The translations under genes and the position numbers were made by a program. Shown here piece by piece: positions 12,316-58,380 of a DNA stretch of 64,000 bases. Source of the stretch: a bacterium (GTDB lineage Bacteria; Patescibacteriota; Minisyncoccia; Phycocordibacterales; Phycocordibacteraceae); contig JBBCGK010000001.1 in the NCBI GenBank assembly GCA_037200965.1, positions 640,001-704,000 on the forward strand. Reading direction: 5' to 3'. Position 1 is the stretch's first letter. Every line of letters starts with the position of its first letter. Under the pieces are notes generated by a model, which worked only from the letters and a program-made list of their open reading frames with translations, was not told where the DNA came from and did not search any database.

Positions 12316-12690
12316 ACTTAGGAGCAGCTTCTAAGTACCGGTACACCGAATACGCTTGCCGAGACTGAACAACGCGAAGCGGTCTGGAAAGCCTTGCGAC
12401 GCAGATACTCGGATCCGCAAGAGCAGGCATCTCTGCATACAGAACTCGACAAGTTTGTATTCGCGGTACACACCGTATGTCTTCATGGGGATATCAAGCT
12501 CGCGAATATGATGGTAGACGGAGAAGGCACCATCTACCTTATCGACTTTGGACAGTCGATAGACATGAACGCCATGAACGACAAAGCCCGCGAGCAGTTC
12601 GAGAATTTACAGGTTCTCGAACGCGACCAGGTTAAATTCTGCATTCGCTCACTCCTTGACGGCATAACGCGCCCAAAGCCCACTGTTTAA
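12316..12690 (+). pseudogene. protein kinase-like gene, C-terminal fragment (catalytic loop HGDIKLANMMV, DFG)
   Basis: frame open from 12322 (after a TAG at 12319), continues the kinase fold: LHGDIKLAN...LIDFGQS. Confidence 0.6.
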
Positions 12691-18845: not shown

Positions 18846-18850
18846 AACCC
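17807..18850 (+). CDS. IS481-family DDE (rve) transposase (ORF in the track reads through to 19003 into the adjacent IS30)
   Basis: HTH N-term, TDNGPEF, SPKMNAFVERFNRT, RRPHESLGQVPPLRY; no stop codon before the IS30 junction. Confidence 0.7.
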
Positions 18851-19849
18851 CACTCTAACTGCAACACTCACTTCCTCAGAAATATCGAGCGCGGTGATTC
18901 GAATTTCAGACGCTTGCGCGGCCGGTCATTGAGCTTCTTCACCACATGCGCCAGCTCCTCAGGGGTGATCAGGTTGAAGTTGAGCGAACGAGGAAAGTAC
19001 TGACGCAGGAGTCCGTTGGTATTCTCGTTGGTACCACGCTCCCAAGGACGGTGCGGGTATGCGAAGTACACGGTTGCCCCGCTCTTCTTCCCGAGTCGCT
19101 TCCAGTCGGCAAATTCTGGACCGTTGTCGAGCGTGATGGTCTTGCGTTTGGCACGCGGAATATGACGGAAGCGTGCGAGCGCAAGCGACGTGAGGAGCTC
19201 GGCGCGCATCTTGGGCAACAAGTATGCAACCAGGTATCCGCTCCTGCGATCCACAAAGGTGACAATGCGGACTCGCTTGTCGCTGCCTTGCACCGTATCG
19301 CCCTCCCAGTCGCCGAGCCGGCTTCGTCGTTCAATAATCGTTGGACGGTCATCAATACGCTGCTTCTTGGCCGCTTCACGAGCCTTCTCGCGTATTTTGG
19401 TACCGCGCCTGCGACGGTATTTGCCTTTGGATGATCTGAGGAACTGCTTCAGGTGCGGAGCACGCTCCTCAATATATCGGTATATGGTGCTGGCGGAGAC
19501 TGCACCCGTCACCCCTTCAATTTGCTCAGGAGAGTGGTGGTCTTTGAGCATACGCACCACCGTGCGCAAGAGCGCACCCTTGAGCACGCGAATACTGTCC
19601 ATTGCAGCAATGCGTTTCAGCTTCTTCTTTCTGCGTACTTCGCGTACATCATATCCCTCACGTCCGCCGTATTCGTTCACATGACGAGAGATCGATCCTG
19701 CATCCTTCTCAAGCGTACGTGCGATCTCTCGGATCGCGTGTCCTGCCCGCAGCATGCGGGCAATCACCGGCCAGTCTCCTGGCCCAATCTGGGTATGTGC
19801 CATATCCAGAGAGTGTGGAACCCAAAAGAGCTGTTGCAATTAGCCTGCA
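18846..19849 (-). mobile_element. IS30-family insertion sequence (second copy, different lineage)
   Basis: ends CTAACTGCAACAC (18855-18867) and CTGTTGCAATTAG (19831-19843) inverted; same architecture as IS30 at 11231-12315. Confidence 0.65.
18868..19803 (-). CDS. IS30-family transposase
   Basis: DDE core, YFAYPHRPWERGTNENTNGLLRQYFPR, LNDRPRKRLKFESP. Confidence 0.85.
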   Translation of the reverse strand: MAHTQIGPGDWPVIARMLRAGHAIREIARTLEKDAGSISRHVNEYGGREGYDVREVRRKKKLKRIAAMDSIRVLKGALLRTVVRMLKDHHSPEQIEGVTGAVSASTIYRYIEERAPHLKQFLRSSKGKYRRRRGTKIREKAREAAKKQRIDDRPTIIERRSRLGDWEGDTVQGSDKRVRIVTFVDRRSGYLVAYLLPKMRAELLTSLALARFRHIPRAKRKTITLDNGPEFADWKRLGKKSGATVYFAYPHRPWERGTNENTNGLLRQYFPRSLNFNLITPEELAHVVKKLNDRPRKRLKFESPRSIFLRK

Positions 19850-26885: not shown

Positions 26886-27734
26886 ATGAAATCCTATCGC
26901 CCGACCAGCAAGAGCCGCCGTGCCATGACGACGCTCCCGTACAAGGAGCTCCTTTCCGGCGCGAAGCCGCATAAGCCGCTCATGGGCTCGAAGAAGCGCC
27001 AAGGGGGCCGCAACAACGCGGGCCGCGTGAGCGTCCGGCACCAGGGCGGCGGGCACAAGCGCCTCTATCGCGACGTCGATTTCAAGTACGACAAGAAAGG
27101 AATCCCGGCGAAGATCGAGACCGTCGAATATGATCCGTATCGCTCGGGCTTCATCGCGCTCGCGCTCTATGCCGACGGCGCCCGCCGCTACGTGCTCGCG
27201 CCCAAGGGTCTTTCGGTCGGCGATTCCTTCATCGTCGCCGAGGATGCGCCGCTTAAGAGCGGCAACCGACTCCCGATCGGGAAGATTCCCGTCGGCACCT
27301 TCATCTATAACGTCGAACTTCGCCCGGGCGCAGGCGCGCTTCTCGCCCGTTCTGCGGGAAACTACGCGGAAGTGGTCGCGCACGACCAGGGCTATGCTCA
27401 GGTTAAATTGCCGTCGACCGAAATCCGCAGGGTGTCCGATCTTTGCTGGGCTTCGGTGGGTTCGGTGGGGAACGAGGAATACAATCTCGTGAACCTCGGT
27501 AAGGCGGGCCGCTCGCGCTGGCTTGGCATCCGCCCGACGGTTCGCGGTACGGCCATGAACCCGGTCGACCATCCGCATGGCGGCGGCGAAGGAAGGCAGG
27601 GCCGCGGACTCAGGAGGGCGAAGAGCGCCTGGGGCAAGCCGACCGGCAAAGGCCAGAAGAGCCGCACGCCGAAGAAGTACTCGAACGTCTTCATCGTCTC
27701 GAGGAGGAAAGTCGGGAAGAAGAGGAAAGGATAA
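26886..27734 (+). CDS. rplB: 50S ribosomal protein L2
   Basis: L2 motifs GGGHKRLYR, RNPVDHPHGGGEG. Confidence 0.95.
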   Translation: MKSYRPTSKSRRAMTTLPYKELLSGAKPHKPLMGSKKRQGGRNNAGRVSVRHQGGGHKRLYRDVDFKYDKKGIPAKIETVEYDPYRSGFIALALYADGARRYVLAPKGLSVGDSFIVAEDAPLKSGNRLPIGKIPVGTFIYNVELRPGAGALLARSAGNYAEVVAHDQGYAQVKLPSTEIRRVSDLCWASVGSVGNEEYNLVNLGKAGRSRWLGIRPTVRGTAMNPVDHPHGGGEGRQGRGLRRAKSAWGKPTGKGQKSRTPKKYSNVFIVSRRKVGKKRKG

Positions 27735-28668
27735 TTTTACAAGGGTAATCCCTAATTCCTGCCACCAAACCCAGTGCCCTGAACGAGCGTGAGCAGACGC
27801 TCCTCCTGCTCGGCAAGCGTCTTCGTGCGGCGGTTGAACTTCCAGGCGATCTCTCCGACGAAGAGGTACAGATGCGTACGGCGCATGCCGCCGATGCATC
27901 CGAGACGACGCTTCAAGAGCCCCCAGAAGCCCTCGATGTTGTTCGTATGCACGTCGCCGCGTACGAGCTCTCCGCCGTCATGATCCACGTACTCGTGACG
28001 GTACCCCCGCTTCTTGAGGCCGCGGTATGTTTTGAAGCCGTCGGTATACACGTACGCTCCCTCCGGCACCAGCCGCTCGATCGTGCTGAAGATGGTCCTC
28101 CAATCAAGCTTCTTGGGGAGTATGGCGACATATACCTGTCCGGAGGTCCGCGAAAAGAGCCCGAAGATGGGAAGCTTGTCGGTCCCGTGACCGCGCTTCG
28201 TTTCCAGACGCCGGATGTGGAGACGTTTGTTCTTGCGCTGGCCGCCGATGTACGTTTCGTCCATCTCGATTGGACCGGGAAGCACGGCTGGCTGGTCAGC
28301 CGTCATGACCGTACGGAGATGGAGTGCCATGCGCTCCACGCGCGAATGCGGTATTCCCGTCTCCTCAACGATACGTTTGATCGTCCGCTCCCTGAGGAAG
28401 ACACGTATGCACTTCCGCCACTCGGCTTCCGTGCTGCGGATGCCCTCAACTGGAGCTGCGTGCCCGCTCCACTCGCGTCTGCACCGCCTGCACTTCAGTT
28501 TGTTCCTGCGGAGTTTCCAGGCACGGCGGAAGGCGCAATACGGACATACAGGAGCGGGCATATATGGTGGCACTATTAGGTATTGCACCACTGTGCCCGT
28601 CAGAGAGCCTCACGCAAGGATATTTCAAAGATATGTGGTGGCAGAGTTAGGGATTACCCTTTACAAAA
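27735..28668 (-). mobile_element. IS1595-family insertion sequence (934 bp) with ~33-bp terminal inverted repeats, inserted immediately after the rplB stop codon
   Basis: TTTTACAAGGGTAATCCCTAATTCCTGCCACCA (27735-27767) vs reverse complement of GTGGTGGCAGAGTTAGGGATTACCCTTTACAAAAG (28634-28668). Confidence 0.8.
27752..28591 (-). CDS. IS1595-family (ISXO2-like) transposase
   Basis: N-terminal CPYC...CRRC zinc ribbon, DETYIGG, HTNNIEGFWGLLKR; stop inside the IR; alternative start at 28561. Confidence 0.85.
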   Translation of the reverse strand: MVQYLIVPPYMPAPVCPYCAFRRAWKLRRNKLKCRRCRREWSGHAAPVEGIRSTEAEWRKCIRVFLRERTIKRIVEETGIPHSRVERMALHLRTVMTADQPAVLPGPIEMDETYIGGQRKNKRLHIRRLETKRGHGTDKLPIFGLFSRTSGQVYVAILPKKLDWRTIFSTIERLVPEGAYVYTDGFKTYRGLKKRGYRHEYVDHDGGELVRGDVHTNNIEGFWGLLKRRLGCIGGMRRTHLYLFVGEIAWKFNRRTKTLAEQEERLLTLVQGTGFGGRN

Positions 28669-28671
28669 GAA

Positions 28672-28700
28672 AAAGCCCCGCCAGACCGGCGGGGCTTTTT
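28672..28700. terminator. bidirectional hairpin terminator GCCCCGCC-AGACC-GGCGGGGC flanked by A- and T-runs
   Basis: 8-bp GC stem with AAAAA upstream and TTTTT downstream. Confidence 0.55.
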
Positions 28701-28709
28701 CTTTCCGGC

Positions 28710-29495
28710 TTATTGGTATTCGGGCTTCAAGATGTCCGCGAAATCGGAACGCGGCAGGCGCACGGTCTGCGGACCTATGGCATACGGGCCGACGGCGTAA
28801 GGAGGGAAGAAAATAAGGAGATCGGTACCGTCAAGCGCAAAGAACTGGAAATTTCCCGCGTCGTCCGGCGACGTTCCGGTGTCGACGAAATCCGGAAGCG
28901 CGTACTCCCCGAGCGCTGCGTACAGGAATGCCCGCGATGCTCTGGAGAGCGCGTCGAGATACGGCGCGCTACGCATGAACAGATCGCCAAGTTGGAGTGC
29001 CTTGCCGGTCGTGGAATCGAATGTGAACGTGCGGTAGTAGCTGTTGGGGTGCGCACCGAGCGTATCCTCGTAAATACTGAAGACATAGGAGAGCGTACGG
29101 GGTGACGCATATGCCGCATACTCGATATCCTGCGCGTATTTCTTATCAGGCCCGAGTTCCTGAAGTTTTATATCTTCTTCCGTAAGGTTTCCGAGGCGGT
29201 TCTGGTTCTTGAATTCCGCTTCCGCGGCCAGTACCCATGTCTCCATGACCTTTGCCGCATGTGCGTCCGCCTCCGCCCCGGCGGTTACAAGAAGCGGGGT
29301 TGATGCGGGATAGATGGCGTCGATGAGGTAGTAGTCGGCGTGGTCCGCAACCGTCTTGGAGGTCGTAGTTGCATTTTCCCCGGAAGGGACAGGGGCCACT
29401 CCGGGTGCCGGATTCTCGGCCATGTACCAGAGAAGGCAGGCAAGTATGGCAACCAGCACCGCACCGAGCGCGATCCGTTCGCAAGTGGTGTTCAT
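28710..29495 (-). CDS. membrane-anchored DUF3298/RsiV-like domain protein
   Basis: N-terminal anchor; C-terminal region resembles the DUF3298 family; recognition from memory only. Confidence 0.4.
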   Translation of the reverse strand: MNTTCERIALGAVLVAILACLLWYMAENPAPGVAPVPSGENATTTSKTVADHADYYLIDAIYPASTPLLVTAGAEADAHAAKVMETWVLAAEAEFKNQNRLGNLTEEDIKLQELGPDKKYAQDIEYAAYASPRTLSYVFSIYEDTLGAHPNSYYRTFTFDSTTGKALQLGDLFMRSAPYLDALSRASRAFLYAALGEYALPDFVDTGTSPDDAGNFQFFALDGTDLLIFFPPYAVGPYAIGPQTVRLPRSDFADILKPEYQ

Positions 29496-30257: not shown

Positions 30258-30608
30258 ATGTCCCGATCGCTCAAGAAAGGTCCCTACGTGGACGCGAAGC
30301 TCATAAAGAAGCTTCGCGACAAGAAACCGGCTACCGCCGGGGTGATTAAGACGTGGGCGAGAGGTTCCCAGATCGCCCCGGAGATGGTCGGCTTCACGTT
30401 CGGCGTCTATAACGGACAGAAGCACCTCGAGGTGCTCGTCTCCGAGGAGATGGTAGGGCACCGCCTCGGCGAATTCTCCCCGACCAAGAAGTTCGTCCGG
30501 CACGGAGGCAAGATGCAGAAGGAGCTCGAGCAGAAGCGCCAGGAGTCCGAGATCGCGTCCGCGAAGGCCGCCTCAGCCGCTCCTGCCAAGGCCCCGGCAA
30601 AGAAATAA
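30258..30608 (+). CDS. rpsS: 30S ribosomal protein S19 with Ala/Lys-rich C-terminal extension
   Basis: SLKKGPYVD...KHLEV. Confidence 0.9.
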
Positions 30609-33200: not shown

Positions 33201-33761
33201 ATGATGCTTTCCAAACAAAAACAGCAGACCTCCTTCGAAGCTCTCTCGGCTGATTTCGGCTATACGAGCCGCATGCAGGCGCCGCGCATCGAGAAGGTCG
33301 TCGTCTCCTCGGGAGTCGGCAAGAAGCGCGACAAGAAGCAGCTCGAACTCATTTCCGAGCGCCTCGCCCGCATCACGGGCCAGAAGGCGGCACCGCGCGC
33401 GGCAAAGCAGTCGATCGCGCAGTTCAAGATGCGCGCGGGCGATACGGTCGGATACCAGACGACGCTCCGCGGGGCGCGCATGTTCGATTTCCTCGACAAG
33501 CTCATTCACATTGCCTTGCCGAGAACCAGGGACTTCCGCGGCCTTCCCGCGACCGCGATCGACGACATGGGCAACCTCACGATCGGCATCCGCGAGAACA
33601 CCATCTTCCCGGAGACTTCCGACGAGGACCTCAAGGACGTGTTCGGGCTTGCCGTGACCATCGTCACGACCGCGAAGTCGAAGAAGGAGGCCGATGCGTT
33701 CTTCCGCCACCTTGGCGTGCCGCTTCGCCCGGCTGAGGAGCAGAAGAAGGGGAAGAAATAA
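33201..33761 (+). CDS. rplE: 50S ribosomal protein L5
   Basis: L5 sequence. Confidence 0.9.
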   Translation: MMLSKQKQQTSFEALSADFGYTSRMQAPRIEKVVVSSGVGKKRDKKQLELISERLARITGQKAAPRAAKQSIAQFKMRAGDTVGYQTTLRGARMFDFLDKLIHIALPRTRDFRGLPATAIDDMGNLTIGIRENTIFPETSDEDLKDVFGLAVTIVTTAKSKKEADAFFRHLGVPLRPAEEQKKGKK

Positions 33762-33785: not shown

Positions 33786-33814
33786 TTGACGGGAGTCAGG
33801 GCTCTTTGTATCAT
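33786..33814 (+). promoter_or_regulatory. sigma70-like promoter TTGACG-N17-TATCAT directly after rplE
   Basis: good -35/-10 with 17-nt spacer, upstream of island gene A. Confidence 0.4.
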
Positions 33815-33895
33815 ATATTCGGATACTTCACATTCTCGGATAGTGACGTTAACGGTATCCACGTCGAGCGTCCGATGGCATCAAGGAGATGTGTC

Positions 33896-34309
33896 ATGCG
33901 GTTTGTCTGTGATCTTGAGGATTTGTTCTGGATGAGTAATAGATACGAGCATACTGCCAGCAATGAGATCAGGCAGGCGCTTCTTGCCGGAAAGGATACG
34001 GACGGAACTCCGCGCTGGACGATTCCGGGGGCTGGAATGTTCAATCTTGCCCAAGTCCTCTGGTCGGGCCAAAACTCGGTTGGCCATGAAGAGGACTGCG
34101 CACGAGACCGTATGTTCACCAGTCTCGAGCTCATGCGTCGACTGGGCCACGCCCGTGCACGCTCGCAGGCTGTGTTTTTTCTCGTCATTCTCCGGAGGAT
34201 GGAGCGCGAGAACAGCGACTCCATCGAAATCAATATCCCGTGGACCCGTGCGAAGACGAGGTGCATGTATGTCAAACGGAAACCAAATATCGAATTCGGT
34301 CTGGTATAA
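33896..34309 (+). CDS. hypothetical protein A (137 aa) of the rplE-rpsN island
   Basis: ATG with AAGGAG RBS 7 nt upstream; hairpin terminator 34316-34341 downstream. Confidence 0.45.
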   Translation: MRFVCDLEDLFWMSNRYEHTASNEIRQALLAGKDTDGTPRWTIPGAGMFNLAQVLWSGQNSVGHEEDCARDRMFTSLELMRRLGHARARSQAVFFLVILRRMERENSDSIEINIPWTRAKTRCMYVKRKPNIEFGLV

Positions 34310-34556
34310 CCGGACAGGGCGCGGCGGAACTTTCCGCCGCGCCCATCGTGTGTATGGGTCACCATTCTATATCAGGTACATACGAGTGAATTTGACGTAC
34401 TAAGTTATACATACCTTTTTTACGAATTAGTCCTGCAAGTGCTAATTTCTGGCAGCAGAATTGTTCCAATATCCTAAAGGAAACCCCGCAAAGCTTGGTT
34501 GCTTTGCGGGGCTCGACCGGAGGTCGATTTTTCAAACAAGGCTTAGTATGTCCGGT

Positions 34557-35348
34557 TCAGGTTTTGGGGTCGATGCTCATCGCGCGCGGTATCGATTTCC
34601 GTTGCCAGTTGTCGATTTTTCGCCTATCAGAACTCCTGCCGATTATGTATAAGACGAGTGAGATGATGCATACGGCCACGCCCGGGCCGAAGGAACCGAT
34701 GTCCAAAGCCTCCCCGGCCCACACACACAGGGCAAGGTATATGAAGCCCGTAGCACCGAGCACGTAGCTGACAGCCGTTAAACCGTTGCTCTCGCTCTCT
34801 TTGCGCCGATACGAGGTTAACAGGGATTCGGCGATCGGGAGTTCGCTTCCCGGTCCTTCATCCCACGCGGCAAGAGGATATACCCGGCCATCGTGAGCTC
34901 GGCCCACGAGCAGGCTCGGCCCGCTCGTGCCGAATGCGCCGGACTCATACTTGGGATACTCGGGAAGAGACTGACTGATCCAGACCTCGATGTCGGCGAA
35001 GCAGTCCAGCCAATTTACCCATTCCAGACCTTCGAGTACTTTGCGGGGGAATTTTTGCCCGTACCATGCTCGATAGGTCGTGCTGTAGGCATAACCATGG
35101 TACGTGTTCACAGTGCGCACTTTGCGGACACACTGCCACCCTTTCTGAGCCGAGAATTTCCCGGGAAGAGAGCATCTCCACTGGCTCAGGGAATTGGGGT
35201 CGAAGGGTTCGAGAAGCGGAACATGCCTACGAATTTCTTCGATCCGGTTAAGCCGAGGCAGCGCCATGAGTGCGTTCCTCGCATCCGCGTTCAGCGTCCG
35301 TCCGTAGGCGGCGACTGCTTCGATTCTTCGGGATTGGTATTCAGCCAT
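34557..35348 (-). CDS. hypothetical protein B (263 aa) with two C-terminal TM helices
   Basis: start ATG overlaps the upstream gene stop (TGATG coupling); C-terminal hydrophobic helices AVSYVLGATGFIYLALCVWA and VAVCIISLVLYIIG; terminator hairpin 34479-34510. Confidence 0.45.
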   Translation of the reverse strand: MAEYQSRRIEAVAAYGRTLNADARNALMALPRLNRIEEIRRHVPLLEPFDPNSLSQWRCSLPGKFSAQKGWQCVRKVRTVNTYHGYAYSTTYRAWYGQKFPRKVLEGLEWVNWLDCFADIEVWISQSLPEYPKYESGAFGTSGPSLLVGRAHDGRVYPLAAWDEGPGSELPIAESLLTSYRRKESESNGLTAVSYVLGATGFIYLALCVWAGEALDIGSFGPGVAVCIISLVLYIIGRSSDRRKIDNWQRKSIPRAMSIDPKT

Positions 35349-35956
35349 CACACGTCCTCCTTGCTCGGAGCCGCGACGAACGCGACCCAGTTGTGCCACG
35401 AGATTTCGGTCGGGACGGAGCCCTGCGAATTCTTGAGGCTGCAGAGGGAGGAATAGAAGTAGTTGATGAGGCCGGCCGGATTGCCGTTGAGCGGTTCCGT
35501 GACGAACGCCACGAAGCTGCCGTCGGGTATGCGCGGGTCGTGCCCGAGATCGTCCGCGAGCCGCGGGCGCTCTGCGAACAATGCGTCTCGATACTCGACC
35601 GGTGCGGGAACGAGGCTGGCCTTCTGGCCGTATTCCTCGATCTGCCCGGGCCTGAGCCGACCGTTTTTGCCCGAATCGCCGAAGCGGACGAGCATGAGGG
35701 TTTTGTCCTCACCGCCGATCGCGATCCTCACCGCGCAGGCCTTGCCGCCTTTCGGCGGGTCGATCCGCGCCGTGGTCGCGATCTCGCTATAGAGCCCGGA
35801 GAGCTCTGCGAGAACACGCTCAAGCCTGCTGCTATGCGCGGGCTTGACCACCGCGGCGAGCAGCTCATTCAGGTCTGCGCCGGTTTGCCCGCGAACGAGC
35901 TCGCCGATCTGACCGAGCGCCCCGAAGAGCACCGTGGCCGTGACAGGTTTTGGCAT
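35348..35956 (-). CDS. hypothetical protein C (202 aa), translationally coupled to B
   Basis: ORF with 1-nt stop/start overlap with B; no recognisable domain. Confidence 0.45.
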   Translation of the reverse strand: MPKPVTATVLFGALGQIGELVRGQTGADLNELLAAVVKPAHSSRLERVLAELSGLYSEIATTARIDPPKGGKACAVRIAIGGEDKTLMLVRFGDSGKNGRLRPGQIEEYGQKASLVPAPVEYRDALFAERPRLADDLGHDPRIPDGSFVAFVTEPLNGNPAGLINYFYSSLCSLKNSQGSVPTEISWHNWVAFVAAPSKEDV

Positions 35957-36272
35957 GACACTTCCTTTCTATGAACCCCTCACTCCTTAGCGAAGCCCCA
36001 GGTTCAACAGCCTTACCTCCACCCGATTGTGGCGGTTTCAGCGCGCAACAGCCCACTTTAGTGAGCCCCTGAGCGCTGAAACCGCCCCTAGCCTTGTTTT
36101 CAAGGGACGTATCTATCTAAGAGTGTATACTATATATCATATCTTGTCAAGTTTTCCGTAATGGTTCAATACCTTGGATGATTCCAGGGTATTGACAGAT
36201 AATACTGTATGTGCTAACGTTACTTAAGCGTTCGGGCCGCTCTTTTCAGCTCGGAACCAATGGAGGAACATC

Positions 36273-36668
36273 ATGAACAAGATTTATCTGGCTATCATGG
36301 CCGTCATTTCCCTCTCCGGCATCGCCCTGGCCTTCAGCCCCGAGGCGGTGTTCGAGAGCGCTTCCCGGGTTGACCCGGGCGGCACCCTGTCGTTCGCGAA
36401 CTTCTCCTTCTGGACGTGCGTCTGCATCGGGGGCGTCGTTTTCTTCTTCTCCCGTCGCGGATCACAAGGAAAAGAAATCGCGAGGATCGGCTTGCTTCTC
36501 GGAGCCGCGGCCGCGTGCCTTGCGCTCATGTCGCTCACTCACTACTTCGCGTACTGGCATCAGGGCCTCGCGACGATGCTGGGCATCATCTTCTTCGTCT
36601 CCCCGCTGCTCGGCATCGCGATCGCGCTGTCCGACCGACAGCAGACATCGGTTCCGAACGGAGGCTGA
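36273..36668 (+). CDS. small membrane protein D (131 aa, 4 TM)
   Basis: hydrophobic helices; hairpin GGAGGCTGAAGCCTCC just downstream. Confidence 0.45.
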   Translation: MNKIYLAIMAVISLSGIALAFSPEAVFESASRVDPGGTLSFANFSFWTCVCIGGVVFFFSRRGSQGKEIARIGLLLGAAAACLALMSLTHYFAYWHQGLATMLGIIFFVSPLLGIAIALSDRQQTSVPNGG

Positions 36669-37522
36669 AGCCTCCGGTCAAGGACTCGGTTCGCACGCAG
36701 GTACGGCCCCACGCAATTCGGCGTGGGGTCTTTTGGATATATTCGACGCCGCCGGATATATATATAGTGTCCTTCCCGTTCGAGATATCGGCTGGTACGA
36801 TCAAGGATCCGGCACGTCCTCGGCTTGTGCAATGTCATCAAGCCGTAGTTGCGCTTGAACCAGTCCTCAATCGCAACACCTTCCAAACCCTCGGCGCGGT
36901 GTCTTCCGGCGAAGACACTTGCGAGGCTGGTGATTGAGAAGGCAGGTCACGCGGTCAGCCTGTCGCTGGGACAGCGCTCCGAGTTCCATGTCCTCGGGAA
37001 AGAACCGGCGCAGCTGTTCTCGCATGCACCCCGCTCCCAGGGATGATGGGGACGGGCGAAGTATACCCGGGCATTGGTATCGCGCTCAATGAACTGCCAG
37101 AGCGTGAACCCGGTACCACGATCGTACGTGATGGTATGTGCAGGAAGATCAGGAAGCGCTCCTCGCGCTTCCTGGTGCACCGTGTTCGTTTCGTCGTCAG
37201 ACACGAGCCGCGCCCGCAAGGAACCCGCCTCTTTCGGTCAACACGGGCCAGAAACCTTGCACGGTCGCGTCCGACCGCGGTATGGTCTCGTCGGATATGA
37301 TGCGTCCCTCTTCGGTGATCTGTTCGGGCGGTCAGCGCGCAGAAGCGCGGACAGAAACACCCGCTCGTCGCGTGTCAAGTGATGATGCGTTGAAGGCCCG
37401 AATGATGGATACCATTCGGGCTTGAAGACAGAAGCATTGCGTTTCAAGCTCGGATTTAAGCTATGATTTAGCGTTGACGCGGGTTGAACCCCGGGCAAAG
37501 CAGGCGCGGACCTCGTTCTCAT
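36560..37522 (-). pseudogene. degenerate IS30-family transposase remnant (multiple frameshifts)
   Basis: fragments ITYDRGTGF...YFARPHHPWERGACEN (36947..37219) and an HTH-like LTRDERVFLSALLRA (37238..37522), collinear with intact IS30 transposases but in different frames. Confidence 0.55.
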
Positions 37523-37674
37523 CCATTTTCGCGAAGTTCGTGATTTCGGTAAAGTTGTTTAGGCCGTCTGACGAAAGATTATCCCGCTTGGCCGCTCGAC
37601 CAAGCAGGGCTCCTGTTTGACGCCCCGTAACCTATTTGATACAGTGTCCTGAAGCTCCGCGGAGCTATTTTTGT

Positions 37675-37944
37675 ATGGCTAAAACCTCCCAGCTTGCCCG
37701 GTACGCCAAGAAGGCGAAACTGGTCAAAAAGTACGCCGCCAAGCGCGCGGCTCTTAAGGCTGCCGGTGACTCTGAGGGCCTCCAGAAGCTCCCGCGGAAC
37801 TCCTCCCCGGTTCGTTTGAAGAGCCGCTGCGCCGTTTCCGGCCGCTCCCGCGGGTATCTCCGGGCGTTCGGCCTCTCCCGCATCCAGTTCCGCGAGATGG
37901 CGAGGGAAGGGAAGATTCCGGGCGTAAAGAAGGCGTCGTGGTAA
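37675..37944 (+). CDS. rpsN: 30S ribosomal protein S14
   Basis: [15 protein letters not shown]...[26 protein letters not shown]. Confidence 0.85.
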
Positions 37945-45043: not shown

Positions 45044-45138
45044 AGATCGCGCGCGTATCAAAGAGAAGCGCCCGCGCTAGCGCGGGCGCTTCTCTTTCGC
45101 TATACTGCCCGCATACCTTTAATTCATTCGACAGCATC

Positions 45139-45747
45139 ATGGCAACGCATCCGCAATACGAGAGAACCCTTGTAATCGTGAAGCCCGACGGGGTGCAGCG
45201 CTCCCTTGTCGGAGAGATCATCAGCCGCTATGAGCGCATGGGCCTTAAGCTGGTCGGCATCAAGATGCTCGTGCCTTCGGCGGAGCTCGCGGAGAAGCAC
45301 TATCTCGCCGATCCGAACTGGCGCATGACGGTCGGTACCAAGACCATCGCAAGCTATGAGAAGAAAGGCGAAACCCCGCCCTCGACCGATCCGCTCGTCA
45401 TCGGCGGCATTATCCTCGAGTCGGTGAAGAAATACCTCACTGCGGGCCCCGTCATCCCGATGGTGTGGGAGGGCGCGCATGCGGTCGAGGTCGTGAAGAA
45501 GATCACGGGCGGTACGGAGCCACGAACGAGCGACGTGGGCACCATCCGCGGCGACTTCATGCTCGACTCGTACCCGATGGCCGATCTCGACAAGCGCGCG
45601 ATCAGGAACCTCGCGCACATCTCCGGGAATCTCGACGACGCGAAAGTGGAGATCCCGCTCTGGTTTACGCCTGAGGAACTCGTCGAGTACAAGCACATCC
45701 AGGAGCATATCCTCTATAACGAGGATATGGGCGGGGCATTGAAATAA
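45139..45747 (+). CDS. ndk: nucleoside diphosphate kinase (long variant)
   Basis: RTLVIVKPDGVQRSLVGEII, NxxHxSD-like region with insertions. Confidence 0.75.
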   Translation: MATHPQYERTLVIVKPDGVQRSLVGEIISRYERMGLKLVGIKMLVPSAELAEKHYLADPNWRMTVGTKTIASYEKKGETPPSTDPLVIGGIILESVKKYLTAGPVIPMVWEGAHAVEVVKKITGGTEPRTSDVGTIRGDFMLDSYPMADLDKRAIRNLAHISGNLDDAKVEIPLWFTPEELVEYKHIQEHILYNEDMGGALK

Positions 45748-45807
45748 AAAGCAAAGGATAGCGGAAAGCCGCGCTTCTATCTAAGAGCCGCGGCTTTTTA
45801 TCCATGG

Positions 45808-46389
45808 TTATGTCTTGTCGGGGTCGTGCTTATCAATATCGTCTGTTCTCATTCCAAAGTTGTCCAGGCACAGATTACGAAAATAAATCGCACCTACACG
45901 CCTCAAGATACCCATACTGGTGCCCTTTTCGAACGCGAACTTCTTTAATTGGTTGTCAAATTCGGGCGCGAGTACAAGAAGGTCAAAAGCTTTGAAAATA
46001 TGCTTTTGAACTTCATAAGGATTTGTATTTCTTTTTTCTTCACACAGCTTCATCAATTCGTCTTTATGGGCAGCAATATATTCTTTCCACCCACTCTCGA
46101 TGAGCCATTCTTCTCCAAGGGGTTTGAGATTGACAGGCGATCCCTGCCCGAATGCCGGGGCAGGAGCGCTTGCGTTATCAGTGGATACTTGCAAATCGTG
46201 CAAGGCATCTTTCACCCATTGCATGGATGTTTCAAGCGCGGTAAACCGGCCGTTTGAATACCAGGCGATACCCAGGAGCGCTGCCATGAGGCCAAGAAAG
46301 TATTCCCAACCTATGTGAATGGTAACGCCGTCCATATAACCGGCAGTATACACTGTCCCTATATAACGTAGGAATAAAGCCTGAATCAT
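45808..46389 (-). CDS. hypothetical membrane-associated protein
   Basis: ORF 45808..46554 trimmed to internal ATG; one TM helix. Confidence 0.3.
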   Translation of the reverse strand: MIQALFLRYIGTVYTAGYMDGVTIHIGWEYFLGLMAALLGIAWYSNGRFTALETSMQWVKDALHDLQVSTDNASAPAPAFGQGSPVNLKPLGEEWLIESGWKEYIAAHKDELMKLCEEKRNTNPYEVQKHIFKAFDLLVLAPEFDNQLKKFAFEKGTSMGILRRVGAIYFRNLCLDNFGMRTDDIDKHDPDKT

Positions 46390-46633
46390 AGAAAAGTGGA
46401 CGTAAGGTTGTCCACAACCTATTTCCTTGGTCGGGCGTATACTGAATCCGGGCCGCCTTAAAACGCAACTGTTTACACATTCGGGAGCCTGACATTCTCC
46501 CCGGCTGGCGAATCCTTTCCGGAATCCGACGCCGCGGGCAGCAAGGGCACCCACCTGGCACTACAGTTGCCTACTGGCGGTCCGCGAGAAAATCCCGCAG
46601 AAGTGCGGGATTTTCTCGTGCTAGAGTTTCTAC

Positions 46634-48022
46634 ATGCCGTTTCGCATCACTCCCTATGGCGGAGCCGATTCCGTCACCGGTTCGAACTTTCTGATAGAAG
46701 GAAGCGGCGGCGGGAAGATTCTCGTCGACTGCGGCATCGAGCAGGGGAGGGATGTTTCGGAGGCGGATACGTACGCCCCTTTTCCGTACGATGCGTCCCA
46801 GATAGACGCGCTCGTGATAACGCACGCGCATCTCGATCACGTGGGCCGCTGCCCGAAGCTCGCAAAGGAGGGATTCAGGGGCAGGGTATATATGACGCCG
46901 CCGACGCGCGATCTGGCGGAACTTATCCTTCGCGACAGCGCCGGCATCCTCGCGCAGGAAGCGCAGATGCGGCATCTGCCCCTTCTTTATACCGACGAGG
47001 ACGTGACGCGGTTCTTCTCGCTCGTCGAAACGCTCGAATACCACACGGAGAAAGAAATCGCTCCCGGCCTTTCGGTCTGTCTCCGGAACACCGGCCATAT
47101 CCTCGGCTCCGCAAGCGTCCGGATACGGGATGCGTCGGGCTCCTCCCTCGCCCTTACGGGCGACATCGGCAACTCGCCCTCTCCCTTTCTTCCCGACGCC
47201 GAACCGATTCCGGACGCCGGCGCCCTGCTTATGGAAAGCGTGTACGGCGACCGGCTGCATCCGCACCTTGCCGATCGTGTCGCGGAGCTTCGCGATACCC
47301 TGAAGCGGGCGATAGCGCGGGGAGGAACCATTCTCATCCCTTCGTTCTCGATGGAGCGCACGCAGCTCATGCTCTACGAATTCTCGAACCTCATGGCCGC
47401 GGGAGAGATCCCGAAGATTCCCGTATTCCTCGATTCCCCGCTCGCGATCGGCGTCACCGCCGTATACGAGAAATGGGGAAGTACGTATTTCAAGCAGGAG
47501 GCGAAAGAGGAGCTCGAGCGGGAAGGCAGCATTTTCAATTTCCCGTTTCTCAAGATGACATCCTCGCGCGAGCAGTCGGAGGGAATTGCGGCCGCGCCTG
47601 ACCCGAAGATCATCATCGCGGGGGCGGGCATGAGCCACGGAGGGCGCATAGGGGCGCACGAGGCCCGCTATCTGCCGTTTCCGACGACGACCCTCATCAT
47701 GGTCGGATACCAGGCGCCGGGGACTCCCGGGCGGCTCATGCAGGAAGGCGCTCCTTCCGTGCGGCTCGGGGGCCGGGAGGTGCGCATACGGGCCAAGATA
47801 GAGACCCTGTCAGGCTGGTCGGCGCACGCGGACCGCGACGGGCTCATGAAGTTTGTCGAAGCCTGTCTTCCGGGGACGAAGACGTTTTTCGTCGCGATCG
47901 GGGAGCCTTCCGCCGAGCGTTTCCTCGCCCAGCGCATTCATGACACCTTCAGTGTTCGCACTATCGTACCGGAGACGGGGGAGGGGTGGGAGATAGGGAA
48001 AGATTCGATTCATAGGGTATAG
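46634..48022 (+). CDS. beta-CASP family MBL-fold ribonuclease (RNase J/CPSF-like)
   Basis: VITHAHLDH zinc motif, beta-CASP motifs incl. WSAHAD. Confidence 0.7.
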   Translation: MPFRITPYGGADSVTGSNFLIEGSGGGKILVDCGIEQGRDVSEADTYAPFPYDASQIDALVITHAHLDHVGRCPKLAKEGFRGRVYMTPPTRDLAELILRDSAGILAQEAQMRHLPLLYTDEDVTRFFSLVETLEYHTEKEIAPGLSVCLRNTGHILGSASVRIRDASGSSLALTGDIGNSPSPFLPDAEPIPDAGALLMESVYGDRLHPHLADRVAELRDTLKRAIARGGTILIPSFSMERTQLMLYEFSNLMAAGEIPKIPVFLDSPLAIGVTAVYEKWGSTYFKQEAKEELEREGSIFNFPFLKMTSSREQSEGIAAAPDPKIIIAGAGMSHGGRIGAHEARYLPFPTTTLIMVGYQAPGTPGRLMQEGAPSVRLGGREVRIRAKIETLSGWSAHADRDGLMKFVEACLPGTKTFFVAIGEPSAERFLAQRIHDTFSVRTIVPETGEGWEIGKDSIHRV

Positions 48023-48031
48023 TCTTGCTAT

Positions 48032-49813
48032 ATGCCCGATTCTCGCGGCGCGTCCACGCAGCTTTCTCCCGAACGCCACGCTACTCCCTTCGCGTTTTTC
48101 CTCGCGACGAATCGTCAGGAAGTGAAATGGCTTGGCTTGAGCGCGCTTTCTTATAGTTTTGCGGCGGCGGCCATGCTCGCCGCTACCTATGCGCTTGGCC
48201 AGGCGGTGGATTTGCTCCCCCCCCCCCCCCCCTCGCACGGACCAATCCGCCTACTCCTTATCGGCGCGATCCTCGGTTTTGTTTGCTATGAACTTGGGTT
48301 CCGTGTCGGGCACATAATTGAAGTCCTTGCTTCCTCGCGTATACGTGCCAGAACGAAACAGGCGCTCTTTGACCACGTGACGGGACTTTCGTACGGCTAT
48401 TTCGTGGACCGGTTTTCCGGGCAGATCGCGCATAAGATCTCGGCGACGACCGACGCGCTCGAACGGATGACATTGCGCGTCACGAATGATTTTATAGAGG
48501 AGGGCGCGTTGGTATTGATAAGCGCCGCTACACTTTCTCTCATCAGCCCCTACTTCGGGCTGTTCGTGCTTGTCTGGGGGGTGCTGTTGTGCCTTGGCAC
48601 GCTTCCGTATGCGAAGCGGATGAACGCGCGGGCGAACGAATACGCGGACGTGGAATCAAAAACCACCGGCGTCTTCGTCGACTTCTTCGGCAATATAGCG
48701 GCAGTGAAAGTGTACGGAGGTACGCGAAGCCGCACGTCCGTCCATGATCAGATCGAGGAAGAGAAGCGCTCCTTTCGGGCGCTCGGCTTTTGGGCGGTGC
48801 TGTCATACAACTATATGGGTTTGTCGGTCGTCGTTCTCGGCGCGGGGCTCATCGCCATCACTTCGTACTTGTATGCCCACACGCTTATCACCCTGGGGAG
48901 TATCCTGTTCGTGATGGCGACGGGGCTTCGCCTCTCGAACGTCTCGTGGGAACTCGGGAAAAGCGTCATAGATTTCATCCGCGAGCGCGGGGAATGCCAG
49001 CAGAATCTCGAAGACCTCATCGTTGCGCCCGTCGTGACCGATCGGGCGGTCTCTCCTCAACATGCGCATACGCAGGCACGCGTCGAATATCGGGACGTAA
49101 CGTTTTCATACAATACCGGCCGGCCGGTACTCGCCGATTTCTCGCTCTGCGTGTCCGCGGGAGAGAAAGTCGGTATCGTCGGGCGTTCGGGCGCGGGAAA
49201 AACCACGCTTGCGAATCTGCTCCTCCGGTTCTTTGACGCGAACAAAGGGGCGGTGCTGTTAAACGATGTCGATGTCCGCGACTTGTCGCAGCAGTATCTC
49301 CGCTCCCACCTTTCCTATATTTCACAGGATACGTCCTTGTTTCATGCAAGCGTACGGGACAATATCGCGTACGGGGTGCCTGACGCGCCGCAGGAAGACG
49401 TAGAAAGCGCCGCGCGGCTTGCGTATGCTGACGAATTCATACACGCGCTCCCGCAAGGGTACGACAGCGTCGTCGGCGAGCGCGGCGTAAAGCTCTCGGG
49501 CGGCCAGCGCCAGCGCATCGCTATCGCCCGCGCCATCCTTGCGGACCGTCCCCTCTTCCTTCTTGACGAGGCGACGAGCGCGCTCGACAGCGACAGCGAG
49601 TCGAAAATCCAGGTCGGTCTCGCGGCCCTTATGGAAGGGAAGACCGTCATCGCCATCGCGCACCGTCTCTCGACCCTTTCGCGCATGGACCGCATCATTT
49701 ATCTGGAAGAGGGAAGGATTATCGAAGACGGAGCGCACGAAGAACTGCTGGCGCTGAACGGAAGATACGCCGAACTTTGGCGCATGCAGGCGGGCGGGTT
49801 CCTTCCCTCATAA
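48032..49813 (+). CDS. ABC exporter, fused permease/ATPase (MsbA-like)
   Basis: 6-TM domain, Walker A GRSGAGKTT, signature LSGGQRQR, Walker B LLDEATSALD. Confidence 0.85.
   Translation: MPDSRGASTQLSPERHATPFAFFLATNRQEVKWLGLSALSYSFAAAAMLAATYALGQAVDLLPPPPPSHGPIRLLLIGAILGFVCYELGFRVGHIIEVLASSRIRARTKQALFDHVTGLSYGYFVDRFSGQIAHKISATTDALERMTLRVTNDFIEEGALVLISAATLSLISPYFGLFVLVWGVLLCLGTLPYAKRMNARANEYADVESKTTGVFVDFFGNIAAVKVYGGTRSRTSVHDQIEEEKRSFRALGFWAVLSYNYMGLSVVVLGAGLIAITSYLYAHTLITLGSILFVMATGLRLSNVSWELGKSVIDFIRERGECQQNLEDLIVAPVVTDRAVSPQHAHTQARVEYRDVTFSYNTGRPVLADFSLCVSAGEKVGIVGRSGAGKTTLANLLLRFFDANKGAVLLNDVDVRDLSQQYLRSHLSYISQDTSLFHASVRDNIAYGVPDAPQEDVESAARLAYADEFIHALPQGYDSVVGERGVKLSGGQRQRIAIARAILADRPLFLLDEATSALDSDSESKIQVGLAALMEGKTVIAIAHRLSTLSRMDRIIYLEEGRIIEDGAHEELLALNGRYAELWRMQAGGFLPS
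48217..48232 (+). repeat. C16 homopolymeric tract inside ABC exporter coding sequence (encodes LPPPPPS)
   Basis: 16 consecutive C, in frame. Confidence 0.9.
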
Positions 49814-57070: not shown

Positions 57071-58324
57071 CTATACCGCGCGCTCCGGCGGCGGGGGAGG
57101 GGCAAGCCGGAGATGGCGCAGGCTCGAACGGGCGCCCCGCCGCGTATGGAAGAAGAACACGATCGCGAGGAAGCAGGCGATGGTCGCGAGAAGAGAGGCA
57201 AGAAGCGGGAAGCCCATGAAATCAAGCGCAACGCCAAGCATCACGGGCGCGGCCAGGTCGCTTATGCCGCCGATAACGGAGAATACCGATTCGAGCCGCC
57301 CATAGTGGTCGGGAGGCGTGAGCGCGGTCGCGAGGCTCTTTTGGAGAATGGAAAGGAATTCGACCAGCGTGCCGATAAGGAGGCCGCCCGCGACCGTAAC
57401 CGCGTACGGCAGGGGAAGAGCGAGCGCGGCGAGAACGAGCGCCATGAGGCCGCACAATATTGCCGCAAGCCGCGCCTTCTCGCCGCGGTCGGCAATCTTG
57501 CCGAGAAGGTAGCCGAAGAGGGACGGGATGCCCATCACGACCGTAAAGAGAATCACGAGCGAGAGGTTTCCGGTCGTGAAATAGATATCGATCGGAATGA
57601 AGAACTCGACGAGCACCACGACCACCTCGGTAAACAGAAGGAGCATGGCAAGGAGCCGGAGATCGCTGTTCCAGGTCTTCCATTCATCGATGGCCGAGCG
57701 GTATGCGTGCCGGAGCGGAAGCTTCTTCGCCGCGTTTGCGAGCGCCGGATGGTCCTTCCTGATCCGCAGCACGAACGGAAGCGCGAGGAGCGCGGTCGGG
57801 GCGACGAGGAACAAAAGCGCCTGGATCGAGAAGTATTTTATGAGGAGGATCCCGGCGAGCGCCGCGGCGAGCCACCCGAAATTCGAAAGAGTGTCGAGGA
57901 GCCCGAACGAGGAGGCGATAGTGCTCCCCGGAGCCATGCGGCGGATATAGGTATCGATGCCGGTCGAATCGAGGCCCCAGGCGATGCCGTTGAGCCCCCG
58001 CGCGACGACGACGAACGCCACGAGCCCGGTCATGCCCGCGATGAAATAAAAAAGACCGACGAAAGGATAAATGCACAGTCCGATGATCACGAGCCATTTC
58101 GCGCTCATGCGCTCCGCGAGGAGCCCGAGCACCGGTATCGCGAGGAGAAGCGTCACTTCGTAGCTTGAGCGCACGAGCCCGGCTTCGCCGAAGCTTCCCG
58201 TGAGCTGCATGATGAGGATGGGAATGAGCGATTCGCCGAATCCCCAGCCGACATAGCGTATCGTCCGCGCGTACGCGAGCGAACGCACCCCGGCGAGGGA
58301 ATAAGAAAGACGGCGGCGGAACAT
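57071..58324 (-). CDS. MFS transporter
   Basis: 12 TM helices; ATG at 58324 (the track start at 58363 is GTG inside the terminator). Confidence 0.65.
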   Translation of the reverse strand: MFRRRLSYSLAGVRSLAYARTIRYVGWGFGESLIPILIMQLTGSFGEAGLVRSSYEVTLLLAIPVLGLLAERMSAKWLVIIGLCIYPFVGLFYFIAGMTGLVAFVVVARGLNGIAWGLDSTGIDTYIRRMAPGSTIASSFGLLDTLSNFGWLAAALAGILLIKYFSIQALLFLVAPTALLALPFVLRIRKDHPALANAAKKLPLRHAYRSAIDEWKTWNSDLRLLAMLLLFTEVVVVLVEFFIPIDIYFTTGNLSLVILFTVVMGIPSLFGYLLGKIADRGEKARLAAILCGLMALVLAALALPLPYAVTVAGGLLIGTLVEFLSILQKSLATALTPPDHYGRLESVFSVIGGISDLAAPVMLGVALDFMGFPLLASLLATIACFLAIVFFFHTRRGARSSLRHLRLAPPPPPERAV

Positions 58325-58349
58325 GGGAGAAGTATAGCGTGGACAACAC

Positions 58350-58380
58350 AAAAGCCGTCTCACAGGAGACGGCTTTTGTT
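58350..58380 (-). terminator. hairpin AAAAGCCGTCTC-ACAG-GAGACGGCTTTTGTT downstream of rplT
   Basis: stem-loop with flanking A/T runs. Confidence 0.55.

What the first reader, a model, noticed from the sequence alone, without database searches (positions are those of the whole stretch)
48217..48232. C16 homopolymer inside the N-terminal region of an ABC exporter gene
Sixteen consecutive cytosines encode LPPPPPS in frame. Tracts this long are hypermutable by slipped-strand mispairing and are classic phase-variation switches. Plus or minus one C would truncate the exporter. Alternatively it is a polishing or assembly artefact, since homopolymers are error-prone.
Basis: seen in the sequence. Interest (0 to 1): 0.55.

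Follow-up and report, generated by a model that had tools for sequence, protein, structure and literature searches.

The report
Hypermutable poly-C tract in exporter gene
A run of 16 cytosines really does sit near the start of a conserved membrane-exporter gene in an uncultivated, tiny-genome wood-decay bacterium (Patescibacteria), and other assemblies of the same population call it at different lengths, so it is probably a random on/off switch, though sequencing error at such runs is not excluded.

Summary
The C16 run (48217-48232) is confirmed. It is the only homopolymer of 7 bases or more in 64 kb (chance expectation about 4e-5). It lies in frame at codons 62-67 of a 593-aa MsbA/Sav1866-type ABC half-transporter and encodes L-PPPPP-S in the TM1-TM2 loop. 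C15 or C17 stops translation at codon 95 or 87.

About 85 Paceibacteria orthologs carry a conserved, two-residue-shorter S-P-T-P with mixed codons and no repeat. The tract is therefore a lineage-specific DNA-level expansion, not a conserved poly-proline motif.

The window comes from a PacBio HiFi MAG (5_UBA9983_A, JBBCGK, deadwood sample 7). Two other assemblies of that sample match the window exactly except at the tract. A HiFi k-mer contig has C17, which is out of frame. An Illumina contig ends inside the run at C20.

So the tract is not an assembly artefact, but its length is not uniquely called. The disagreement fits coexisting ON/OFF alleles. It fits HiFi homopolymer miscounting equally well, and only read-level analysis can separate the two.

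Best reading: a simple-repeat phase-variable gene, a known mechanism I found no report of in Patescibacteria.

The parts
48217..48232 (+). Uninterrupted poly(C)16 tract, the proposed slippage site. It comprises the last base of Leu62 (CTC) plus five CCC Pro codons.
   Evidence: The same locus has C17 in L119 and a C20 contig end in L120.
48032..49813 (+). ABC half-transporter gene (593 aa; 6-TM domain plus nucleotide-binding domain). It is type IV MsbA/Sav1866-like and its substrate is unknown. It equals NCBI MEJ0053862.1.
   Evidence: Pfam ABC_membrane 2.6e-17 and ABC_tran 6.9e-31. The AF2 model matches MsbA, TM287/288 and Sav1866 over the full length. It was found by exact look-up. It shares all invariant columns with 21 orthologs.
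48212..48238 (+). Codons 61-69 (LLPPPPPSH), the short coil between TM helix 1 (residues 19-60) and TM helix 2 (residues 70-118). This is the extracytoplasmic loop 1 of the exporter.
   Evidence: AF2 secondary structure. The outside location follows from the established topology of type IV ABC exporters (inference). In orthologs the loop varies in length by up to 4 residues.
48289..48291 (+). TGA stop reached when the tract has C14, C17 or C20 (+1 class). The product is an 85-87 aa peptide holding TM1 only.
   Evidence: and the sequence.
48315..48317 (+). TAA stop reached when the tract has C15 or C18 (-1 class). The product is a 94-95 aa peptide holding TM1 only.
   Evidence: and the sequence.
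48189..48191 (+). Out-of-frame ATG that comes into frame with the rest of the gene in the C17 allele. The gene caller used it in L119 (gene 3122-4453). It would give a product lacking TM1 (MRLARRWICSPPPPPSHGP...). No obvious ribosome-binding site precedes it.
   Evidence: (gene start 3122 in L119 equals window 48189).
46634..48022 (+). Beta-CASP/MBL ribonuclease-like gene. It ends 9 nt before the ABC start codon on the same strand and is probably co-transcribed (inferred). Its exact product served as the handle that retrieved the other assemblies.

Best explanation
The tract is a genuine, lineage-specific mononucleotide repeat. It expanded at the DNA level inside the codons for the short outer loop between TM1 and TM2 of a conserved MsbA/Sav1866-type ABC exporter. 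The host is a Paceibacteria (order UBA9983_A) bacterium from decaying beech wood.

A G/C run of 16 is expected to gain or lose bases by slipped-strand mispairing at very high frequency (established knowledge). The gene should therefore flip stochastically and reversibly between two states. Lengths of 13, 16 or 19 give a full-length exporter with 4, 5 or 6 prolines in the loop (ON). All other lengths give an 85-95 aa TM1-only stub (OFF). The population in sample 7 most likely holds both C16 (ON) and C17 (OFF) cells.

Shown here: the tract, its uniqueness, the frame consequences, its absence from orthologs, and the disagreement in length between assemblies of one population. Inferred: that the disagreement is biological, that switching is reversible, and that it benefits the cell, for example by escaping a phage or host factor that uses the exporter, or by saving cost.
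For: 1. C16 is the only homopolymer of 7 bases or more in 64 kb. The chance expectation is 3.6e-5, and no G/C run longer than 9 occurs in 1.43 Mb of other loci.

2. All five Pro codons are CCC, although CCC makes up only 25% of Pro codons in verified genes, so P is about 9e-4. The three other proline runs of 3-5 residues found in the window's longer ORFs use mixed codons that break up the run. This points to a DNA-level origin rather than protein-level selection.

3. The tract lies at 10% of the coding sequence, and a +/-1 change gives stops at codons 87 and 95. That is the classic layout of contingency genes. Homopolymeric tracts are preferentially 5' in prokaryotic genes (PMC2831843).

4. 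Eighty-five orthologs (46-67% identity) have no repeat. The closest have LL-SPTP-HGD, encoded as TCN CCN ACN CCN and two residues shorter.

5. The rest of the gene is intact. It keeps every column that is invariant among the 21 closest orthologs, including Walker A and B, the signature motif and the H-loop. It is therefore not an old pseudogene.

6. L119 is a Logan assembly of PacBio HiFi run SRR28211700. It is identical to the window over 4452 bp except that the tract is C17. L120, from Illumina run SRR10968228 (sample 7), is identical over 1890 bp and ends in the run at C20.

7. The window's MAG (5_UBA9983_A, JBBCGK000000000, 960,259-bp contig, 40.7x coverage) occurs only in sample 7. All three assemblies therefore sample one population.

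8. In C. jejuni, G8-G11 tracts already switch at high rates, and lengthening from G8 to G11 raises mutability tenfold (PMC3401435).
Against: [quoted passage not shown] C16 and C17 were probably called from the same HiFi read set by two assemblers, so the difference may be purely technical.

The Illumina C20 end needs only two substitutions, because the downstream sequence is T-C-G-C. That is typical phasing error after a long homopolymer, so it is weak evidence.

Only one such tract occurs in 64 kb, whereas organisms that use contingency loci usually have many. The other ~900 kb of the genome could not be examined.

The gene is a widely conserved, housekeeping-looking exporter rather than a typical variable surface antigen. 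No reversibility, phenotype or selective agent is known. A run of 16 is longer than the modal 8-11 of well-studied poly-G/C switches, which would make it strongly deletion-prone.
Confidence: 0.55

Rival explanations
1. The tract is real but does not act as a working switch in the sampled population. The population carries one fixed in-frame length (16 or thereabouts). The 16, 17 and >=20 calls are sequencing or assembly noise. The run is a recent, neutral slippage expansion in a loop that tolerates insertions, and it persists by drift in a small-genome organism.
For: Homopolymer length errors dominate HiFi reads. C20 can be explained by two post-homopolymer substitutions. The loop varies in length among orthologs. 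Only one tract occurs in the window. The deposited consensus at about 41x coverage is in frame.
Against: A k-mer assembly of the raw HiFi reads followed the C17 path, so C17 is not a rare error. A G/C run of 16 is expected to slip in vivo at high rates in any bacterium (established knowledge; for G8-G11). A truly homogeneous population would therefore need strong continuous selection for the ON length.
Confidence: 0.25
2. The gene is being lost. The true predominant length is out of frame (for example C17), the exporter is dispensable in this lineage, and the in-frame C16 in the MAG is a lucky or erroneous consensus. The tract is a mutational accident that has inactivated the gene.
For: The independent contig L119 carries C17, and its gene caller had to restart at an internal ATG. 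An in-frame length has a one-in-three prior by chance.
Against: No other lesion exists in 1.78 kb. Every invariant ortholog column, including all ATPase motifs, is retained. Orthologs are conserved across many Paceibacteria lineages. The hifiasm consensus is in frame.
Confidence: 0.1
3. The run serves at the protein or RNA level instead. One version is a rigid penta-proline loop selected for exporter function, or for EF-P-dependent translational pausing. Another is a site where RNA polymerase slips on the G16 template, giving a fixed mixture of in-frame and out-of-frame mRNAs and thus constitutive down-tuning rather than heritable switching.
For: Five consecutive prolines are a known ribosome-stalling motif, and long homopolymers are known transcriptional slippage sites (established knowledge, not tested here). 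The loop is surface-exposed.
Against: Orthologs conserve SPTP, not poly-Pro. Exclusive CCC use (P about 9e-4) and mixed codons at the other proline runs in the window argue against selection on the peptide. The alternative frames close after 20-29 codons, so no second product is encoded. Transcriptional slippage would add to DNA slippage rather than replace it.
Confidence: 0.07

Closest known systems
[quoted passage not shown]
   Same: An uninterrupted G/C mononucleotide run lies in the 5' part of a coding sequence. A +/-1 slippage change gives a frameshift and an early stop. The repeat is lineage-specific and absent from orthologs. Flanks are otherwise identical between length variants (PMC3401435).
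   Different: Those organisms are host-associated pathogens with tens of such loci. Their tracts have a modal length of 8-11, and they mostly lie in surface-structure, glycosyltransferase or restriction-modification genes. Here there is a single 16-17 base tract in a conserved exporter of a free-environment Patescibacteria. Switching has not been measured, and I found no report of this in the phylum.
Mycoplasma fermentans P78 ABC-transporter operon poly(A) switch (Theiss & Wise 1997; recalled from memory, not checked here)
   Same: A homopolymer frameshift in the 5' coding region toggles a component of an ABC transporter in a reduced-genome, host-dependent bacterium.
   Different: There the tract is poly(A) and the protein is a substrate-binding lipoprotein of an importer. 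Here the tract is poly(C) and the protein is the fused permease-ATPase of an exporter.
Listeria monocytogenes inlA 5' poly(A) tract, and the general 5' homopolymeric tracts of prokaryotic genes (Orsi et al. 2010, PMC2831843)
   Same: A 5' homopolymer serves as an efficient, reversible means of gene inactivation.
   Different: That work describes A/T tracts of about 7 bases. G/C tracts of 16 are far rarer and far less stable.
MsbA / Sav1866 / TM287-288 type IV ABC exporters
   Same: The domain order, the fold and all ATPase motifs match.
   Different: The protein scores well below the NCBIfam MsbA equivalog cut-offs (344 against 602 bits). The substrate is unknown. No solved relative was examined for a comparable poly-Pro loop.

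Membership tests
Simple-sequence-repeat phase-variable (contingency) gene | An uninterrupted mononucleotide repeat above the instability threshold (about 7-8 or more G/C) within the coding sequence or promoter | tested here: met
   C16 at 48217-48232, at codons 62-67 of 593.
Simple-sequence-repeat phase-variable (contingency) gene | A change of one repeat unit abolishes or restores the full-length product | tested here: met
   In silico, C14/C17 stop at codon 86/87 and C15/C18 at codon 95/96, while C13, C16 and C19 give the full-length protein.
Simple-sequence-repeat phase-variable (contingency) gene | The repeat is far longer than composition predicts, and the rest of the genome avoids such runs | tested here: met
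   It is the only run of 7 or more in 64 kb, with an expectation of 3.6e-5, and the longest G/C run in 1.43 Mb of other loci is 9.
Simple-sequence-repeat phase-variable (contingency) gene | Repeat-number polymorphism among cells of one strain with otherwise identical flanks | tested here: inconclusive
   The MAG has C16, L119 has C17 and L120 ends at C20. The flanks are 100% identical over 4452 bp and 1890 bp, and all come from deadwood sample 7. HiFi homopolymer miscounting and Illumina phasing errors are not excluded.
Simple-sequence-repeat phase-variable (contingency) gene | Measured high-frequency, reversible ON/OFF switching with a phenotype | not testable with these tools
   The organism is uncultivated. 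This needs reporter fusions or deep read-level time series.
Simple-sequence-repeat phase-variable (contingency) gene | Genome context that favours slippage: several such loci, or a mismatch-repair status that permits it | not testable with these tools
   Only 64 kb of the 967,758-bp genome is available. No other tract occurs in the window. MutS/MutL presence varies among CPR phyla (PMC8406219) and is unknown for this MAG.
Type IV ABC exporter (ABCB / MsbA / Sav1866-like half-transporter) | A six-helix ABC_membrane domain fused N-terminally to an ABC_tran ATPase with intact Walker A, Walker B, signature and H-loop motifs | tested here: met
   Pfam PF00664 plus PF00005. The motif residues lie among the invariant alignment columns. 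AF2 predicts six long helices plus a nucleotide-binding domain.
Type IV ABC exporter (ABCB / MsbA / Sav1866-like half-transporter) | Full-length fold match to solved members | tested here: met
   Foldseek gives E of about 5e-27 to 1e-24 and TM-scores of 0.55-0.63 to MsbA, TM287/288, TmrAB and Sav1866. The model has a mean pLDDT of 75.7.
MsbA (lipid A flippase) equivalog | A score above the NCBIfam equivalog cut-off | tested here: not met
   TIGR02203 scores 344 bits against a cut-off of 602, and TIGR02204 scores 347 against 780. The gene should not be named MsbA.
Programmed recoding (frameshift or transcriptional-slippage) gene | An extended, conserved alternative-frame ORF downstream of the slippery run | tested here: not met
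   Both alternative frames close within 20-29 codons. Orthologs have no slippery run.
Functional poly-proline motif | Conservation of the proline run in orthologs, with synonymous codon mixing | tested here: not met
   None of 85 orthologs has it. The codons are CCC only.

The most novel reading that the evidence does not exclude
This is the first documented simple-sequence-repeat contingency locus in the Candidate Phyla Radiation (Patescibacteria). ON (C16) and OFF (C17) alleles of a conserved envelope exporter would coexist in one natural population. That would mean these ultra-small, probably epibiotic bacteria use stochastic phase variation to manage their interaction with hosts, phages or toxic substrates.
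Probability: 0.35. Interest if true: 0.6.

Novelty: new member of a known kind. Interest (0 to 1): 0.42.

Why it matters
Phase variation through simple repeats is textbook biology in pathogens. I found no report of it in Patescibacteria/CPR. Their cell-surface interactions with hosts and phages are central to their lifestyle and are hard to study, because almost none are cultivated.

This case can be tested immediately with public data, because one deadwood sample has HiFi DNA, Illumina DNA and a metatranscriptome. If the length heterogeneity is biological, it gives a natural marker of ON/OFF population structure in an uncultivated lineage. It would also point to this conserved exporter as a target of fluctuating selection.

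If the heterogeneity is technical, the practical lesson concerns MAG annotation. The deposited gene is called intact only because the consensus happened to fall on an in-frame length.

Tried and rejected
Searches that led nowhere:
- A protein-based scan of genome contigs returned only ABC transporters whose full-length matches were at most 41% identical. Higher identities, up to 59%, covered only the ATPase-domain region. The source genome was not among the hits.
- An exact flank pattern with a variable gap found 0 hits in metagenome contigs.
- A profile-based scan of metagenome contigs picked generic Walker-B and H-loop peptide patterns. It returned only distant ABC genes: at most 42% identical where most of the protein matched, and up to 56% where only the ATPase domain matched.
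- Exact-product look-ups were not on record for the full ABC protein, for the MFS neighbour with two alternative starts, and for the post-tract part of the ABC protein.
- Rfam and tRNA scans of the window found nothing.
- Promoter and terminator scans around the gene were at shuffle level.
- PDB sequence alignments start after residue ~99 for the two top-scoring hits whose alignments were printed, and for most hits in the table. They did not help place the loop, so an AF2 model was used instead.

Ideas considered and rejected:
- Chance occurrence.
- A chimeric join or two-colour poly-G artefact. Both flanks continue the ortholog alignment in one frame, and the tract is present in HiSeq and HiFi data.
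- The antisense ORF 47810-48238, which starts in the G-run. It is a spurious high-GC antisense ORF, like many others in this window.
- A conserved poly-proline function.
- Programmed recoding.

A correction to my own work: my first codon-usage estimate included spurious antisense ORFs. I redid it on verified genes (one search replaced).

Full report
**Observation**

Window positions 48217-48232 are sixteen consecutive cytosines. They lie in a 593-codon ORF at 48032-49813 on the + strand. The local reading is TTG CTC CCC CCC CCC CCC CCC TCG CAC, which gives L-L-P-P-P-P-P-S-H.

The run is an extreme outlier:
- Every other homopolymer in the 64-kb window is 6 bases or shorter.
- A first-order Markov model of the window predicts 3.6e-5 C/G runs of 16 or more.
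- Tandem Repeats Finder finds no other notable simple repeat in the window.

**The gene**

The ORF has an ABC_membrane domain (residues 38-293) followed by an ABC_tran ATPase domain (residues 368-516). It scores about 340 bits against the NCBIfam MsbA-type models. That is far below their equivalog cut-offs, so it is an MsbA/ABCB-like half-transporter of unknown substrate and should not be named MsbA.

I built an AlphaFold2 model from 22 orthologs (mean pLDDT 75.7). It has six long helices plus a nucleotide-binding domain. It matches MsbA, TM287/288, TmrAB and Sav1866 over their full length.

In the model, residues 19-60 form helix 1, residues 61-69 are coil, and residues 70-118 form helix 2. 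The five prolines (63-67) therefore sit in the short TM1-TM2 loop. By the established topology of this fold, that loop faces outward (inference).

**Neighbourhood**

The gene lies just downstream of the ribosomal-protein superoperon (fusA, tuf, S10-spc genes, secY, adk, map). Next come an alpha/beta (serine) hydrolase gene, ndk and a short minus-strand ORF without a Pfam hit. The exporter gene starts 9 nt after a co-oriented beta-CASP ribonuclease-like gene. It is followed by a convergent MFS gene, an EamA gene and two more MFS transporters.

**Effect of length changes**

In silico, C13, C16 and C19 give the full-length protein with 4, 5 or 6 prolines. C14/C17 terminate at a TGA (48289-48291, codon 86/87). 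C15/C18 terminate at a TAA (48315-48317, codon 95/96). Either way only a TM1 stub remains. Neither alternative frame is long enough to encode a second product, which argues against programmed recoding.

**Comparison with orthologs**

The protein database holds one identical protein, NCBI MEJ0053862.1, on a 960,259-bp contig. About 85 clear orthologs at 46-67% identity follow, all from Paceibacteria/Parcubacteria MAGs.

None of them has a proline run at this site. The closest group has a conserved D-L-L-S-P-T-P-H-G-D, two residues shorter than here. More distant members have loops that differ in length by up to four residues.

At the DNA level, three orthologous loci read TCN CCN ACN CCN with mixed third positions. 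They contain no homopolymer of 8 or more in 58 kb.

Within the window, CCC makes up only 25% of proline codons in verified genes. Five in a row has probability of about 9e-4. The three other proline runs of 3-5 residues found in the window's longer ORFs all use mixed codons.

The tract is therefore a lineage-specific product of DNA slippage in a loop that tolerates insertions. It is not a conserved peptide motif. The rest of the protein retains every column that is invariant among the 21 closest orthologs, including Walker A, the Q-loop, LSGGQ, Walker B and the H-loop. The gene is not an old pseudogene.

**Artefact or not**

The full ABC product is not on record elsewhere. The exact product of the adjacent beta-CASP gene, however, is found on three further contigs.

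- L119 is a Logan assembly of run SRR28211700. It aligns to window 45068-49519 with no mismatch and a single gap: one extra C in the tract, making it C17. There the gene caller had to start the ABC gene at an out-of-frame ATG, equal to window 48189, giving a product without TM1.
- L120 is a Logan assembly of SRR10968228. It is 100% identical to window 46343-48232 and then ends inside the run at C20.
- The third contig is 2859 bp, in GCA_015689235.1. Its DNA was not retrievable.

A literature search on these accessions led to Richy et al. 2024 (PMC11613949). In that study SRR28211698-701 are PacBio HiFi runs and SRR10968228 is the Illumina HiSeq run of deadwood sample 7. The MAGs were assembled with hifiasm-meta.

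Table S8 of that paper identifies the source of the window by its 960,259-bp contig:

| Property | Value |
|---|---|
| MAG | CoA_maxb_bin.109, "5_UBA9983_A" |
| Accession | JBBCGK000000000 |
| Size | 2 contigs, 967,758 bp |
| GC | 57.3% |
| Taxonomy | p__Patescibacteria; c__Paceibacteria; o__UBA9983_A; f__UBA2103; g__C7867-001 |
| CheckM2 completeness | 99.3% |
| Coverage | 40.7x |
| Occurrence | sample 7 only (3.83% of reads) |

**What this does and does not show**

The tract is real. Two chemistries see a long C run at the same place, with flanks that continue the ortholog alignment in one frame. A chimeric join or a poly-G artefact is therefore excluded.

The length, however, is not reproducible. 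Two assemblers, working on what are in all likelihood the same HiFi reads of one population, give 16 (in frame) and 17 (out of frame). The short-read graph breaks at the run.

That is the pattern expected if ON and OFF alleles coexist. [quoted passage not shown]

The Illumina C20 is weak evidence. The downstream bases are T-C-G-C, so two post-homopolymer substitutions turn C16 into C20 (my reading). These tools give no access to reads, so the two causes cannot be separated here.

**Mechanism proposed**

G/C runs of 8-11 in Campylobacter jejuni already switch at high rates, and going from G8 to G11 raises mutability tenfold (PMC3401435). 5' homopolymers are a general gene-inactivation device in prokaryotes (PMC2831843). 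A run of 16 should be at least as unstable in any bacterium.

I therefore consider it most likely (0.55) that the exporter gene behaves as a stochastic, reversible ON/OFF gene through slipped-strand mispairing, whether or not this is adaptive.

The rivals are:
- A real tract that is fixed in frame, with purely technical length noise (0.25).
- Ongoing gene loss, with C17 as the true state (0.10).
- A protein- or RNA-level role for the run (0.07).

Points against my preferred reading:
- It is a single tract in 64 kb.
- The gene has a housekeeping-like distribution.
- The run is unusually long compared with well-studied switches.
- There is no evidence for reversibility or phenotype.

**Comparison with what is known**

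The closest systems are the poly-G/C contingency genes of Campylobacter, Neisseria, Haemophilus and Helicobacter. By analogy of target, the poly(A) switch in the Mycoplasma fermentans P78 ABC-transporter operon is also close (that example is recalled from memory).

Three of the defining features of a simple-repeat phase-variable gene are met: a suprathreshold repeat, a frame effect, and strong over-representation. Intra-strain length polymorphism is inconclusive. Switching rate and genome-wide context could not be tested.

Full-text searches found no paper linking phase variation or homopolymeric tracts with Patescibacteria/CPR. Mismatch-repair gene content varies among CPR phyla (PMC8406219) and is unknown for this genome.

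**Verdict**

This is a new member of a known kind: a candidate contingency locus in a phylum where I found none reported. Interest is moderate (0.42). The mechanism is textbook and the key evidence is confounded by sequencing error. The claim can nevertheless be tested directly on public reads from one sample that has HiFi, Illumina and metatranscriptome data.

Noticed in passing
window 27752-29495 (between rplB 26886-27734 and rpsS 30258-30608): An IS1595-family transposase (DDE_Tnp_IS1595, 2.6e-28; 27752-28591, minus strand) and a DUF3298 protein (28710-29495, minus strand) sit inside the S10 ribosomal-protein operon, which runs on the + strand. It is an unusual place for a mobile element.
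   Followed up: partly
window 33800-37600: A second interruption, about 3.9 kb long, lies between rplE (33201-33761) and the rpsN/Z-like gene (37636-37944). It holds only ORFs with no Pfam match above the curated cut-offs.
   Followed up: partly
window 17807-19003: An rve-type integrase/transposase with an HTH_32 domain is a second IS-like element in the window. An RNase H/RVT_3-like ORF lies at 2738-3286.
   Followed up: no
window 20000-40400, minus strand: Long antisense ORFs of up to 774 aa overlap fusA, tuf and the ribosomal-protein genes. They have no Pfam hits and are artefacts of the high GC3 (0.76). A naive longest-ORF gene call is misled here.
   Followed up: yes
window 1-64000: No tRNA gene and no Rfam family reaches threshold anywhere in the 64 kb, even though the region holds the ribosomal-protein operons. 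No r-protein leader elements were detected.
   Followed up: no
window 57071-58363 (minus strand), residues 422-426: A second PPPPP run lies at the C-terminal tail of an MFS transporter. It is encoded by mixed codons (CCT CCC CCG CCG CCG), so it is not a homopolymer. It served as an internal control.
   Followed up: yes
window 45068 and 49519 (ends of L119): The k-mer contig of the HiFi run breaks on the left at a GC-rich palindrome (GCGCCCGCGCTAGCGCGGGCGC). On the right it breaks within the conserved ABC signature region (LSGGQRQR), where an imperfect GCCAGC hexamer repeat lies. Both breaks probably arise from the assembly graph rather than from biology.
   Followed up: partly
window 12632-14764 (minus strand): A 710-aa protein has an LCAT-like alpha/beta-hydrolase (lipase/acyltransferase) domain. 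This is of possible interest for lipid scavenging in a Patescibacteria.
   Followed up: no
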